A program made the position numbers. A DNA stretch of 45,560 nt from the sequence record NC_049955.1; one strand, written 5' to 3'. The stretch comes from Escherichia phage ev243. The stretch's first letter is position 1, and each line of letters starts with the position of its first letter. Below are positions 20,801 to 23,800 of this stretch, piece by piece.

Positions 20801-23800
20801 CTTCACTGGACGTTACAGAAACAGGCACAGATAGTTTCGGGTTTAATTATGGTCGGTTTGTCGTACAGGATTCGATTGTTGGTACAAGTAAAGCGCATAC
20901 CATTATCGGACTGTATTCGAGTACCGGAGGGGTTGATACTTCAGGGGACGAAAAGCATGTAACTATATCCTGTCGGGTAAAAAGTGAAGTTGATAATATC
21001 GCCGTTCGTATTTTATTTGAACATTATGATGGGGAGGTAAGGACATCAATAGGAGCAGCAAACCTGAACCTTACCACCCGCATAATTAGCAAGACAGGTC
21101 AGACAAGCCGTGTTACAGCAAGGTCTGTTAAGGATGATGCAACTGGCTGGATATTTTTTGAGGCTACATTAAAAGCAGATACAACAGAAAATACGGTTGG
21201 TGGTTTTGTCCAGTATTCTCCGGATACAGGGCAGATGGTTACATCAGGGGATTATCTCGATGTAACCACTCCACAGATTGAGGCTGGTACAGGCGCATCA
21301 TCTTTTATTGTTACGGGGACGGCACCGGCAACGCGGGCAAGCGATATGGTGACAGTCCCAATCAAGAATAACCTTTATAATCTTCCTTTTACGGTTCTTT
21401 GTGAGGTACATAAGAACTGGTATAAAACGCCAAATGCAGCACCGCGTGTTTTTGACACATACCGGCATCAGGCAGATGCGGGGATCGTAATGGGGTTTGG
21501 TTCATCAGGTGGGTACGACGGTTTTCCGTATTGTGATATAGGTGGTTCAGACCGACGAATAAATGAAAATGCCGGGCTGGAAAAAATGCTTATTGGTATG
21601 CGGGTAAAGTCCGAACGGTCCACATGTGTAGTCAGTAACGGTAAGTTAAGCAGCGAAACTAAAACCAAATGGGAATATATCCGGAGTACAGCAACCATTC
21701 GCATTGGTGGACAAACTACAGCAGGATTACGCCATTTATTTGGGCATGTGAGGAATTTTCGTCTCTGGCATAAAGAGCTAACAGATGCGCAGCTTGGGGA
21801 GGTTGTGGAGTGAGAGATTTCACGTTGCGTTTCAGTGATAAAGCAGATTTCAGGGCATTTCTCAGGAAACTTAACTGGGAAGAGGACGAAGAGCTGCAGA
21901 ATGCCGTTCTGGTTGATGAGATTGGTTTTACGTTCAGTGAGTCAGGTGTTTCTGCTGACGGGGAGCCTGAATACACGCGAGACGAAGGGTACTTTGTTAA
22001 TATTCGTCTTCTTGACGATGGCTTTGATGAATCCGTGTTCCGTGAGTGGGTGGTTACACCAGAGCGCCCGCTAAGGGAGTGGTTTTAAGGGGAGCAGATG
22101 GATATCACGTCGATACTTCATGCGCTTTGTGCCGTGGCGGTGCAGGTACTGGCTGGTCTTTTTACCGGAAACTGGGCTTACGGGGCGATAGCCGGTTGTA
22201 CGTTCTTCATTGCGCGTGAACACACCCAGGCAGAATATCGCTGGATTGAAATGTTCGGGCATGGCAAGCGGATTAACATGCCGTGGTGGGGCGGTTTTGA
22301 TCCACGTGCATGGGATGTGGCAAGCCTGATGGATTTTGCTGTGCCGGTGGTGGCGTGTCTGCTGGTCTGGCTGTTGGTTAATCGTGGGTGAAAAAGGTGA
22401 GCAGTATATGCAACGAAGGAGGAAACATCATTGCTGGCGGCATGGAAGGCATGCAGGGTGTTGCTGAACCGTGTTGATACATCAACTGCACCTGATATTG
22501 AGTGGCCTACGAACCCTGTCAGGGAGTAATCATTGGGATTATGCCGCAGCACGTCTTAAGCAAGAACGTGCTGCGGTTGGATGCTATTTTTTCCCTGAAG
22601 CGGAAAACATTACTACAGTACCTTGAACCTTGGTTTTAACATTCTCGAAATGCTCTGAGAGTATATGTGTTAAGCCTTCTTCGGAATCTTTTGTGTTTGA
22701 AAAGATGCCTTTCTGATTGTAAATGCGCATCAGTTTTTGACCGAAGCTATTGTGCACAACTCCATCGCCAAGAATTGTGGCTCCGTATAGAGTTCCATCG
22801 TCAGTTAAGGCCTGCGCCGCATTGCGTATTACACAGCTTTTTGTAGATATATTTCCAGGCAGGCAGTGAAGAAGGTAAAACATGGAAATGGAATCAAATT
22901 GACCATGTAACGCCGCGGGATAAGGTTCAAAAACATCATGGCTAATTTTATGTTTAATTTTTGATTCCCCTGCCCTTGTAGATGCCGCGTTCAGGCTAGC
23001 TTCGTTCAAATCCATTAAAGATATCAGACTACTCTCAGGTACGTGAGTAAGGTAAAACCCAGTTCCAACACCAATATCCAGATGGTTGTTACCTAAATGT
23101 TCCAGAAAGTGTGGAAGAAGGTGTTCCTTTGTAGGACATCCCCATGCAAGCCGATTTGATACTCCCAAAACCCACCAGTCATAAAGCTTTAGGGTAAGTG
23201 GTGTGTAAATTTTAGCCCCATCATCTGTGTTTTTTTTCATTAATTTCACCATGTTATAGTTTTATTTGTGAATTAAATCAATTATGGCGATGAATTACAA
23301 GGGGTTAAATGCTGCCGCAGCATAGCGATATTGAAATAGCCTGGTATGCTTCGATACAGCAGGAGCCGAATGGCTGGAAGACCGTCACCACACAGTTCTA
23401 CATCCAGGAATTCAGTGAGTATATTGCGCCACTGCAGGATGCTGTAGATCTGGAAATCGCAACGGAGGAAGAAAGATCGTTGCTGGAGGCATGGAATAAA
23501 TATCGGGTATTGTTGAATCGAGTTGATACATCAGTAGCTCTGGGTATGAAGCTGTTTGTAACTCATGTTACAGTAACAGTCATTACTATCTCGAAGGTGC
23601 AAAATGTATATTGATTTGATATTTTATAAATTTACTTCGAATCTGGCACGTCAACTTTTGATTAAAGTAATATCAGTTTTCGGCGAAAAAAGGACCGTGT
23701 ACATGAGACGATTTCATACAATAATAACAAAAATATGAATATGCTCCCAATGCAATATATGTTTTGCATTGGGAGCAAATAGCGGAATATTTTGAAATTA

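What the first reader, a model, noticed from the sequence alone, without database searches (positions are those of the whole stretch)
22098..22391. Small two-TM membrane protein at the tail-fibre-distal moron position
Seen: 97-aa ORF with two hydrophobic segments just after the fibre genes, before the convergent cargo block. Established knowledge: the slot downstream of tail fibre genes in lambdoid phages often holds superinfection-exclusion or lysogenic-conversion membrane proteins (for example cor). Inference: candidate exclusion or receptor-masking factor.
Basis: partly seen in the sequence, partly recalled or inferred. Interest (0 to 1): 0.45.

Follow-up and report, generated by a model that had tools for sequence, protein, structure and literature searches.

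The report
Conserved membrane protein ending tail-fibre operon
The 97-codon ORF is a real, strongly conserved small inner-membrane protein of unknown function that sits next to receptor-binding (tail fibre or tailspike) genes in many unrelated phages, but the evidence argues against a self-contained moron or a receptor-masking factor.

Summary
The ORF at 22098-22391 (+) is real. It matches PHROG 1443 over its full length (E 6e-58). It is under purifying selection (dN/dS 0.10) and occurs in 1900 of 5426 complete E. coli genomes. AlphaFold gives a confident model (pLDDT 94.5) with three helices, not two: a TM1-TM2 hairpin, a 34-residue invariant basic/aromatic loop, and TM3. Charge counts over 199 homologues place the loop in the cytoplasm and leave almost nothing in the periplasm. 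The gene is the last cistron of stf-orf92-orf97. The gap to orf92 is 9 nt, no promoter was found, and its GC content matches the phage backbone, so it is not a classical moron. Homologues lie next to receptor-binding-protein (RBP) genes in lambda-like, P2-like, P22-like, multi-tailspike and jumbo phages. They do not co-vary with fibre type. Stand-alone chromosomal copies exist in Aeromonas and Sphingomonadaceae. No Pfam, NCBIfam, PADLOC, PDB or fold match was found, and I found no literature on it. Receptor masking of the Cor/Llp type is unlikely. An action at the inner membrane, whether exclusion or protection, fibre docking, or a conserved host-type membrane activity, remains open and untested. 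Interest is moderate.

The parts
22098..22391 (+). orf97: 97-aa integral membrane protein, PHROG 1443 family (identical to WP_000355700.1, 'hypothetical protein')
   Evidence: ORF. PHROG 1443 match E 6e-58 over residues 1-96 of 97. dN/dS 0.10. AF2 pLDDT 94.5. PGAP annotation.
22107..22166 (+). Helix 1 (residues 4-23), predicted TM1; carries near-invariant H8 and Q16
   Evidence: AF2 secondary structure. Hydropathy. Conservation: H8 0.97, Q16 0.83.
22173..22256 (+). Helix 2 (residues 26-53): hydrophobic 26-39 (TM2), continuing as the conserved polar helix R40-E41-H-T-Q44-A-E46-Y47-R48-W-I
   Evidence: AF2. Invariant columns. G20xxxG24 and G29xxxG33 flank the tight turn (read from the sequence).
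22257..22316 (+). Conserved aromatic/basic loop (residues 54-73: G.GKR.NMPWWGGFD.R.W), predicted to face the cytoplasm
   Evidence: Conservation. Mean K+R 5.36 for residues 40-73, against 0.09 in the TM1/2 turn and 0.41 in the C-tail, over 199 homologues.
22317..22385 (+). Helix 3 (residues 74-96), predicted TM3, with conserved D79 and P83
   Evidence: AF2. Hydropathy. Conservation: D79 0.88, P83 0.98.
22087..22094 (+). Shine-Dalgarno-like AAGGGGAG overlapping the orf92 stop codon, 3 nt before the ATG
   Evidence: Read from the sequence.
21810..22088 (+). orf92: acidic soluble 92-aa protein (PHROG 1361). Its GTG start overlaps the stf stop codon. It co-varies with the fibre C-domain and is a frequent upstream partner of the orf97 family.
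   Evidence: Identity 41-64% where orf97 is 92-94%. Homologues lie directly upstream of family genes in Comamonas, Pantoea and a metagenomic phage. AF2 reached only pLDDT 66.
19744..21813 (+). Side tail fibre (stf): PF08400 N-terminal domain plus a GTA head-spike-fibre-like C-domain (PHROG 1419); first gene of the three-gene operon
22410..22529 (+). 3' remnant of a tail fibre assembly gene (tfa pseudogene) directly after orf97; a scar of cassette replacement
   Evidence: Translation. PGAP 'tail fiber assembly protein, incomplete' in the identical HM670 region. The same remnant follows the BL21-type copy.
22543..22577 (.). Strong hairpin between the convergent transcription units (end of the fibre operon and end of the methyltransferase gene)
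   Evidence: MFE -28.3 kcal/mol, z -4.6. The terminator scan did not call it because the T-run is offset.

Best explanation
Shown: orf97 is a genuine, selected member of an uncharacterised family of ~95-105-aa proteins (PHROG 1443) that are predicted to be integral membrane proteins. It is the terminal cistron of the side-tail-fibre operon stf-orf92-orf97. The family lies next to receptor-binding-protein (RBP) genes in many phage types, does not co-vary with RBP type, and has stand-alone chromosomal members.

Predicted: a three-helix protein with a tightly packed TM1-TM2 hairpin, a rigid and almost invariant basic/aromatic juxtamembrane loop (R40 E41 Q44 E46 Y47 R48 ... R58 . . M P W W G G F D . 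R . W), and TM3 with D79/P83. The loop faces the cytoplasm and only 2-4 residues face the periplasm.

Inferred: it is made from the Q-antiterminated late transcript together with the fibre, not as an autonomous prophage-expressed moron. It acts inside the bilayer or at its cytoplasmic face on a component common to Proteobacteria, not on an outer-membrane receptor.

My best guess for the pay-off to the phage is membrane-level protection or exclusion. That means making the inner membrane of an infected or lysogenised cell refractory to genome entry or membrane damage by further tail-bearing particles. This works like T4 Imm, P22 SieA or HK97 gp15 but is unrelated in sequence. I put this specific role at about 0.3. 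The descriptive part (real, conserved, RBP-cassette-linked inner-membrane protein; not a receptor masker) I put at more than 0.85.
For: - Reality and selection.
- Operon position: stop/start overlap and a 9-nt gap. The gap is 9-45 nt or an overlap in ~80 E. coli-type loci. No + strand promoter was found after the lom terminator. GC content matches the backbone.
- RBP adjacency in independent architectures: lambda-like stf; Hapunavirus phiHAP-1, after the tail-fibre assembly gene and before the sheath gene; Halomonas, after DUF4376; a P22-like prophage, overlapping the tailspike stop; between two pectate-lyase tailspikes in a Salmonella myovirus-type cluster; after Tail_spike_N, Peptidase_S74 and Laminin_G_3 proteins; after giant gpJ; between two PHROG 5939 tail proteins; between an unannotated 383-aa ORF (presumed DGR target) and bAvd of a DGR; just upstream of the tail fibre in Aeromonas jumbo phages.
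- Independence from RBP specificity.
- Topology: K+R 5.36 in the loop against 0.09 and 0.41 on the other side. AF2 helices.
- Autonomous value to cells: syntenic chromosomal copies in the Aeromonas media clade between pirin and RIO1 kinase, and ligA-fam-prmA in Sphingomonadaceae.
- Dispensable for at least one fibre: a decayed copy lies behind an intact S74 fibre in phage HC6.
Against: - No experiment and no homology to any characterised exclusion protein. PHROGs returns only unknown-function families, and Pfam, NCBIfam, PADLOC and PDB return nothing.
- Late-operon placement predicts little expression in a lysogen. This phage already carries SieB and RexA at the immunity region.
- Known inner-membrane exclusion proteins are lineage-specific. 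This family keeps at least 12 invariant residues across alpha-, beta-, gamma- and delta-proteobacteria and sits in housekeeping neighbourhoods. That fits a conserved biochemical activity better than a phage-specific block.
- The topology rests on the positive-inside rule and AF2 only. The TMHMM result quoted in the phage 21 record (N-in, C-in, loop out) disagrees.
- RBP adjacency might partly reflect hitch-hiking inside a recombining cassette.
Confidence: 0.32

Rival explanations
1. Host-type membrane activity carried as an auxiliary gene. The family would be a small enzyme, carrier-lipid or ion-handling subunit whose conserved polar cluster (H8, R40, E41, Q44, E46, D79) works at the cytoplasmic leaflet. 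Phages would co-express it with RBPs to alter envelope precursor or surface-polymer supply, for example to reduce receptor display on the dying cell. Bacteria would keep it for their own envelope physiology.
For: - Near-invariant polar residues across four proteobacterial classes.
- Chromosomal copies in housekeeping contexts, syntenic between species.
- 737 alphaproteobacterial clusters.
- The loop is predicted to be cytoplasmic.
- Conservation is independent of RBP type.
Against: - 97 aa is very small for an enzyme.
- No fold or profile match to any small membrane enzyme or transporter.
- No conserved operon partner in the chromosomal contexts.
- Sphingomonads lack LPS, so an LPS-specific role is excluded.
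- The invariant charges may simply be structural salt bridges.
Confidence: 0.25
2. Fibre or tailspike assembly accessory. The cytoplasmic loop would dock a soluble, fibre-specific adaptor (orf92 or a Tfa/DUF4376 protein), or the RBP itself, at the inner membrane, giving a platform for fibre maturation or attachment to tails.
For: - Consistent adjacency to RBP genes, including in virulent jumbo phages.
- Tight translational linkage to stf-orf92.
- A recurrent pairing with acidic orf92-like proteins in Escherichia, Comamonas, Pantoea and a metagenomic phage, set against a basic loop.
- Only a tfa remnant is left here, so these fibres lack a canonical Tfa.
Against: - It does not co-vary with the fibre.
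- It occurs in addition to Tfa-like genes.
- It follows RBPs that carry their own intramolecular chaperone (Peptidase_S74).
- It has decayed behind an intact fibre in phage HC6.
- Chromosomal copies have no phage genes nearby.
Confidence: 0.18
3. Holin, antiholin or lysis-timing membrane protein retained at the end of the tail module.
For: - Small size with three predicted TM helices.
- In one metagenomic phage it directly precedes a PHROG 1024 protein, an M15 endolysin and an Rz-like spanin.
- In many phage groups the lysis cassette follows the tail fibre genes (general knowledge).
Against: - No charged C-terminal tail: mean 2.9 residues and 0.4 K+R.
- No hit to any PHROG or Pfam lysis family.
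- This phage has its own lysozyme and Rz cassette ~21 kb away.
- Sequence conservation across classes is unlike holins.
- Stable chromosomal copies exist.
- The phage 21 annotators called it only 'putative membrane protein'.
Confidence: 0.07
4. One reading: a periplasm- or outer-membrane-directed receptor-masking or lysogenic-conversion factor, analogous to Cor or T5 Llp, expressed from the prophage.
For: - RBP-adjacent position, as for cor and llp (general knowledge).
- In phiHAP-1 it sits between the tail-fibre assembly gene and the sheath gene. In P2 that position holds Z/fun (general knowledge).
- In a P22-like prophage it occupies the post-tailspike slot, which often holds O-antigen-modifying genes (for the position; the rest is general knowledge).
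- TMHMM in the phage 21 record places the loop outside.
Against: - No conserved lipobox or cleavable signal.
- Positive-inside counts put the loop in the cytoplasm.
- No co-variation with RBP type or receptor, while the RBPs it accompanies are very diverse.
- No promoter and no compositional signature of a moron.
- It is present in sphingomonad chromosomes away from phages.
Confidence: 0.05

Closest known systems
Inner-membrane superinfection-exclusion proteins (T4 Imm, P22 SieA, HK97 gp15)
   Same: Small phage-encoded integral inner-membrane proteins. The working model proposed here, blocking events at the cytoplasmic membrane rather than at the receptor, is what those proteins do (general knowledge; PMC10883804 and PMC3594210 appeared in the title/abstract list but were not read).
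   Different: - No sequence relationship: only unknown-function PHROGs match.
- Those genes are expressed early or from the prophage and lie outside fibre operons.
- They are lineage-restricted, whereas this family spans four proteobacterial classes and has chromosomal members.
RBP-linked receptor blockers (Cor of phi80/HK022/N15, Llp of T5)
   Same: Small genes encoded next to the receptor-binding protein gene.
   Different: Cor and Llp are exported and act on the outer-membrane receptor FhuA, matching the receptor of their own phage (Llp is a lipoprotein). orf97 has no conserved lipobox, is predicted to expose almost nothing to the periplasm, and does not track RBP type.
Lambdoid and P2 morons (lom, bor, P2 Z/fun)
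   Same: It sits at a module boundary where morons are often found, next to lom and upstream of cargo. In phiHAP-1 it lies between the tail-fibre assembly gene and the sheath gene, the position that holds Z/fun in P2 (general knowledge).
   Different: lom here has its own terminator (19712-19733). orf97 has no detectable promoter, is packed 9 nt behind the preceding cistron, and has backbone-like GC.
Tail fibre assembly chaperones (Tfa/gpG, DUF4376, T4 gp38)
   Same: It occupies the position that tfa holds in lambda; a tfa 3' remnant lies immediately downstream.
   Different: It is membrane-embedded, not soluble. It is unrelated in sequence. It does not co-vary with the fibre tip. It is found in addition to Tfa-like genes.
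Class I holins (lambda S105)
   Same: ~100 aa with three predicted transmembrane helices.
   Different: The predicted orientation is opposite (N-in, C-out). There is no charged cytoplasmic C-tail. It has a highly conserved loop, no adjacent endolysin in this phage, and no lysis-family profile hit.

Membership tests
PHROG 1443 (unknown function) | Full-length match to the family profile HMM | tested here: met
   E 6e-58, 194 bits, residues 1-96 matching profile positions 1-96 of 97.
Cor/Llp-type receptor-blocking proteins | Export signal or lipobox (the lipobox applies to Llp) and exposure to the periplasm or outer membrane | tested here: not met
   The N-terminus has no K/R. 'IAGC' at residues 31-34 is not conserved (C34 52%) and lies inside a hydrophobic helix. 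H8 and Q16 in helix 1 are conserved, so it is not a cleaved signal. Segments predicted to be periplasmic total ~5 residues.
Cor/Llp-type receptor-blocking proteins | Co-inheritance with one RBP or receptor specificity | tested here: not met
   orf97 is 92-94% identical where stf-C is 41-54% and orf92 is 42-64%. The family follows LamG, S74, pectate-lyase, P22-type and gpJ-type RBPs.
Cor/Llp-type receptor-blocking proteins | Sequence or profile similarity | tested here: not met
   No Pfam, PHROG or NCBIfam hit other than unknown-function PHROGs.
Moron (autonomous transcription unit inserted between phage genes) | Own promoter and terminator | tested here: inconclusive
   No sigma-70-like site on the + strand between 19733 and 22098. 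The gene is 9 nt from the upstream cistron. A strong hairpin lies downstream. A consensus scan cannot exclude a weak or alternative promoter.
Moron (autonomous transcription unit inserted between phage genes) | Nucleotide composition distinct from the flanking phage genes | tested here: not met
   GC: orf97 0.548, J 0.561, lom 0.553, window 0.503, cargo 0.41-0.44.
Inner-membrane superinfection-exclusion proteins (Imm, SieA, gp15) | Homology to a characterised member | tested here: not met
   The PHROG scan gives only phrog_1443, phrog_34165 and phrog_9191, all of unknown function. PADLOC gives none.
Inner-membrane superinfection-exclusion proteins (Imm, SieA, gp15) | Small integral inner-membrane protein | tested here: met
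   Three confident hydrophobic helices. This is a prediction only.
Inner-membrane superinfection-exclusion proteins (Imm, SieA, gp15) | Blocks genome entry of superinfecting phage; expressed in lysogens or early in infection | not testable with these tools
   Needs plating, DNA-entry and expression experiments.
Holins | Charged hydrophilic C-terminal tail and linkage to an endolysin | tested here: not met
   The C-tail averages 2.9 residues and 0.41 K+R. The phage's lysozyme and Rz lie at 43526-44481. Endolysin adjacency was seen in only one metagenomic phage.
Tail fibre assembly chaperones (Tfa, DUF4376) | Profile similarity and soluble nature | tested here: not met
   No Pfam or PHROG hit to a chaperone family. 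It is predicted to be membrane-embedded. It coexists with DUF4376/Tfa genes.

The most novel reading that the evidence does not exclude
PHROG 1443 is an unrecognised pan-proteobacterial family of three-helix inner-membrane proteins that acts as a general functional companion of phage receptor-binding-protein cassettes in sipho-, myo-, podo- and jumbo phages. It would provide either a new, RBP-independent mode of membrane-level exclusion or protection, or a membrane docking site for fibre maturation. Bacteria would have repeatedly domesticated it as a chromosomal gene.
Probability: 0.3. Interest if true: 0.65.

Novelty: new variant of a known kind. Interest (0 to 1): 0.4.

Why it matters
The gene is present in about a third of complete E. 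coli genomes, often in several copies, and it ends the fibre cassette that is exchanged between lambdoid phages. Yet it has no Pfam family, no name, and no paper that I could find.

If its recurrent placement beside RBP genes in unrelated phage types reflects function, it would add a new component to either adsorption-module biology or superinfection exclusion. It would also matter for engineering chimeric tail fibres, where the cassette boundaries, and therefore whether this gene is included, are design choices.

If it is only a conserved hitch-hiker, it still marks the right-hand recombination boundary of the fibre cassette.

Tried and rejected
- Pfam, NCBIfam and PADLOC scans of orf97 found nothing meaningful. 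The best Pfam hit was PhoR at E 0.38; PADLOC gave none.
- A profile search of PDB sequences gave 0 hits at E<=10.
- Fusion partners: longer homologues are mis-called starts, or a subfamily with a ~45-aa loop insertion. None is a domain fusion.
- A conserved neighbour from all-against-all clustering of ORFs around 68 species loci: none beyond the fibre itself.
- The aggregated PHROG scan of upstream genes was too fragmented to be useful. The aggregated Pfam scan was more useful.
- Two viral-contig scans returned almost only E. coli-type prophages.
- Literature: seven searches (an eighth attempt returned only an error), including searches by accession, found nothing on this protein. The one paper opened concerns chimeric lambda side fibres, not this ORF.
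- AF2 of orf92 reached only pLDDT 66 with a 5-sequence alignment, so I ran no fold search on it.
- Stop-codon read-through fusing orf92 and orf97: they are in the same frame here, but in other loci the gap is often 10 nt, so I rejected it.
- A lipoprotein reading of 'IAGC' was rejected because it is not conserved.
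Full report
**Observation**

The window has an ATG-to-TGA ORF of 97 codons at exactly 22098-22391 on the + strand. A Kyte-Doolittle profile shows two hydrophobic stretches, residues ~4-39 and ~75-95, separated by a polar segment.

Upstream on the same strand are:
- J (15518-19015);
- lom (19086-19685), with its own terminator at 19712-19733;
- a 689-aa side tail fibre, stf (19744-21813), with a PF08400 N-terminal domain and a GTA head-spike-fibre-like C-domain (PHROG 1419);
- a 92-aa acidic ORF, orf92 (21810-22088, PHROG 1361). Its GTG start overlaps the stf stop codon.

orf97 starts 9 nt after the orf92 stop, behind AAGGGGAG. Downstream lie:
- a tfa 3' pseudogene remnant (22410-22529);
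- a strong hairpin (22543-22577, -28.3 kcal/mol, z -4.6);
- the convergent cargo: a methyltransferase, an alpha/beta hydrolase and OmpT.

The only corrections are that one small gene separates the ORF from the fibre gene, and that a tfa scar separates it from the cargo.

**Is it a real gene?**

Yes.
- It matches PHROG 1443 end to end (E 6e-58).
- It has 571 homologous clusters in the 5.8-billion-protein collection, and a sphingomonad homologue retrieves 737 more. All are named 'hypothetical' and none has a Pfam domain.
- An exhaustive profile search of 1.84 billion representatives finds 453 relatives, nearly all 70-146 aa.
- Among 27 distinct E. coli-type alleles there are no stop codons, and median dN/dS is 0.10 at dS 0.15.
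- The DNA is present in 1900 of 5426 complete E. coli genomes, with a median of 2 and up to 7 copies.
- The protein is identical to WP_000355700.1 of E. coli O2:H1 HM670.
- BL21-derived strains carry a 90%-identical copy (WP_000355603.1).
- Phage 21 has it as CPT_21_24, 'putative membrane protein'.

**Anatomy**

With a 66-sequence alignment, AlphaFold2 gives pLDDT 94.5 and three helices: 4-23, 26-53 and 74-96. The first hydrophobic stretch is therefore a helix-turn-helix hairpin. G20xxxG24 and G29xxxG33 flank the turn.

The most conserved part is not the hydrophobic core. It is the polar continuation of helix 2 and the loop: R40 E41 (H42) T Q44 A E46 Y47 R48 W I ... G. G K R58. N M P W W G G F D. 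R. W72. H8 and Q16 in helix 1, and D79 and P83 in helix 3, are also conserved.

Over 199 near-full-length homologues, residues 40-73 carry 5.36 K+R on average. The N-terminus carries 0.38, the TM1/2 turn 0.09 and the C-tail 0.41. By the positive-inside rule the loop and the N-terminus are cytoplasmic, and only the turn and a ~3-residue tail face the periplasm. This is a prediction. The TMHMM result quoted in the phage 21 record (2 TMDs, N-in, C-in) would put the loop outside.

A subfamily has a ~45-residue hydrophilic insertion in the loop. There are no fusions to other domains.

**Expression context**

I found no sigma-70-like promoter on the + strand between the lom terminator and orf97. In ~80 E. 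coli-type loci the gene lies 9-45 nt behind, or overlaps, the preceding cistron.

Two arrangements dominate:
- stf (~680 aa) - orf92 - orf97;
- stf (~790 aa) - orf92 - a second fibre protein of 230 or 340 aa - orf97. The 346-aa form and two or three other upstream proteins match Peptidase_S74.

GC content is 0.548 for orf97, like J (0.561). The fibre C-domain is 0.446, orf92 is 0.477 and the cargo is 0.41-0.44.

I infer that orf97 is expressed as the last gene of the late fibre operon. It does not have the hallmarks of a moron.

**Comparative context**

The family sits next to receptor-binding-protein genes in strikingly different phages:
- lambda-like phages;
- the P2-like Hapunavirus phiHAP-1, after the tail-fibre assembly gene and before the sheath gene;
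- a Halomonas prophage, after a DUF4376 protein;
- a P22-like prophage, where its start overlaps the tailspike stop and the prophage ends just beyond;
- a Salmonella myovirus-type cluster, between two pectate-lyase tailspikes;
- Leclercia, Desulfovibrio and Chelativorans prophages, after Tail_spike_N, Peptidase_S74 and Laminin_G_3 proteins;
- Comamonas-type prophages, after a giant gpJ;
- a metagenomic phage, between two PHROG 5939 tail proteins;
- between an unannotated 383-aa ORF (presumably the DGR target; it has no Pfam hit) and bAvd of a diversity-generating retroelement;
- Aeromonas jumbo phages, where it lies immediately upstream of a protein whose N-terminus is conserved, whose remainder is variable, and which related records annotate as tail fibre.

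An orf92-like protein directly precedes the family gene not only in Escherichia but also in Comamonas, Pantoea and a metagenomic phage.

Yet orf97 does not track fibre specificity. It stays 92-94% identical where orf92 is 42-64% and the fibre C-domain is 41-54% identical. In phage HC6, a frameshifted and truncated remnant follows an intact S74-type fibre, and tblastn shows an equivalent partial match (residues 41-93, 43% identity) in three other phage records.

**Non-phage members**

- In the Aeromonas media clade the gene lies between pirin and a RIO1 kinase, flanked by MatE, DNA polymerase II and a lipid A acyltransferase.
- In Sphingomonadaceae it lies 4 nt after ligA and before prmA in two unrelated assemblies, or among other housekeeping genes.
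- These copies keep the same invariant residues.

The family therefore has a function that makes sense in a cell with no phage present.

**What it is not**

There are no hits in Pfam, NCBIfam, PADLOC or PDB sequences. Fold searches give only generic helical bundles.

It is not a Cor/Llp-type exported blocker:
- there is no conserved lipobox;
- helix 1 carries conserved functional residues, so it is not a cleaved signal;
- the loop is predicted to be cytoplasmic;
- it does not co-vary with the RBP.

It lacks the charged C-tail and the endolysin linkage of holins. This phage has its own lysozyme and Rz at 43.5-44.5 kb. It is not a Tfa-type chaperone, and it coexists with such chaperones elsewhere.

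**Mechanism: what I commit to**

Shown: a selected protein that is predicted to be membrane-embedded, encoded by the last gene of the fibre operon, and linked to RBP cassettes across phage morphotypes without tracking receptor specificity.

Inferred: it acts within the inner membrane or at its cytoplasmic face on something common to Proteobacteria.

How I rank the possible roles:
- Membrane-level protection or exclusion against further tail-mediated genome entry or damage, working like Imm, SieA or gp15 without being related to them: ~0.3.
- A conserved host-type membrane activity borrowed by phages: ~0.25.
- A membrane docking role in fibre maturation, with orf92 or Tfa as adaptor: ~0.18.
- A holin-like role: ~0.07.

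Against my first choice:
- late-operon placement predicts poor expression in lysogens;
- the phage already has SieB and RexA at the immunity region;
- the deep conservation looks more biochemical than phage-specific.

None of these roles can be decided without experiments.

**Novelty and verdict**

The gene is catalogued (PHROG 1443; 'hypothetical protein') but uncharacterised, and I found no literature on it. The family-level pattern appears not to have been described: RBP adjacency in sipho-, myo-, podo- and jumbo phages, a predicted cytoplasmic invariant loop, and domesticated chromosomal copies. It gives a concrete, testable lead.

It is wrong or unsupported on 'two TM', 'moron' and 'receptor masking'. 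Interest is moderate (0.4).

Noticed in passing
window 21810-22088 (+): orf92 (PHROG 1361) overlaps the stf stop codon and co-varies with the fibre C-domain (42-64% identity where orf97 is 92-94%). Homologous domains directly precede orf97-family genes in Comamonas, Pantoea and a metagenomic phage. It may be the fibre-specific partner or chaperone. AF2 reached only pLDDT 66.
   Followed up: partly
window 22410-22529 and ~23401-23613 (+): Two tail-fibre-assembly (tfa) 3' pseudogene remnants flank the ybcY-like methyltransferase (22584-23252, -), as in the ybcY-tfaX region of K-12 DLP12. They look like scars of successive fibre-cassette replacements. The conserved block of orf97 plus the tfa remnant appears to be the right-hand recombination boundary of the cassette.
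   Followed up: partly
window 22543-22577: A very stable hairpin (-28.3 kcal/mol, z -4.6) lies between the convergent fibre operon and the methyltransferase gene. The T-run is offset, so the terminator scan did not call it.
   Followed up: partly
window 23798-45560: The window is laid out like a vegetative lambda/DLP12-type genome. Cargo (alpha/beta hydrolase, OmpT) lies between the fibre operon and intD (26905-28068, -). Then come exo/RecT, SieB (32679-33233), RexA (34428-35264), CI (35380-36090), O, P, a porin gene (41642-42721, -) and lysozyme/Rz. HM670 matches the window through ompT and then has different genes (an HTH protein and an acetyltransferase) where the window has intD, which other strains match. 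The phage thus already carries classical exclusion and abortive-infection genes at its immunity region.
   Followed up: partly
L162 2965-3159 (Escherichia phage HC6; tblastn shows equivalent partial matches in ST1UNAM, PBM-2 and PBM-3): An unannotated, truncated remnant of the orf97 family (…RRANIPWWGGFDWRAWDLPSLLD*) lies directly behind an intact 859-aa fibre. I identified the fibre's S74-type chaperone end by eye from the translation. Only the HC6 ORFs were inspected. This suggests the gene arrived with the fibre cassette and is dispensable there.
   Followed up: partly
L112 and L113 (Comamonas nitrativorans, Pigmentiphaga humi) ~5785-7691: The family gene lies between a 383-aa ORF (no Pfam hit; presumed DGR target) and a bAvd gene, so apparently inside a diversity-generating-retroelement locus.
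   Followed up: no
P0145, P0189, P0247 (representative library): A subfamily carries a ~45-residue hydrophilic insertion (…FGKPF.T..EYAEWHY…EGR…W..YY…PDL.AEY..L.G.R) in the conserved loop. The insertion has no recognised domain.
   Followed up: no
L006, L011, L015, L022 and ~30 other IMG/VR loci: Many IMG/VR provirus predictions end exactly at the stop codon of this ORF (locus length 6294 with the match at 6001-6291). Automated prophage boundaries are therefore being placed here, which leaves the downstream cargo outside the predicted provirus.
   Followed up: no
L003 2499-2993 and L156 8970-9518: A PHROG 3108 protein (unknown function, ~160-180 aa) occurs within three genes of the family member in two unrelated contexts: Aeromonas phage 62AhydR11PP and a Comamonas testosteroni prophage. 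This may be a second recurrent neighbour.
   Followed up: no
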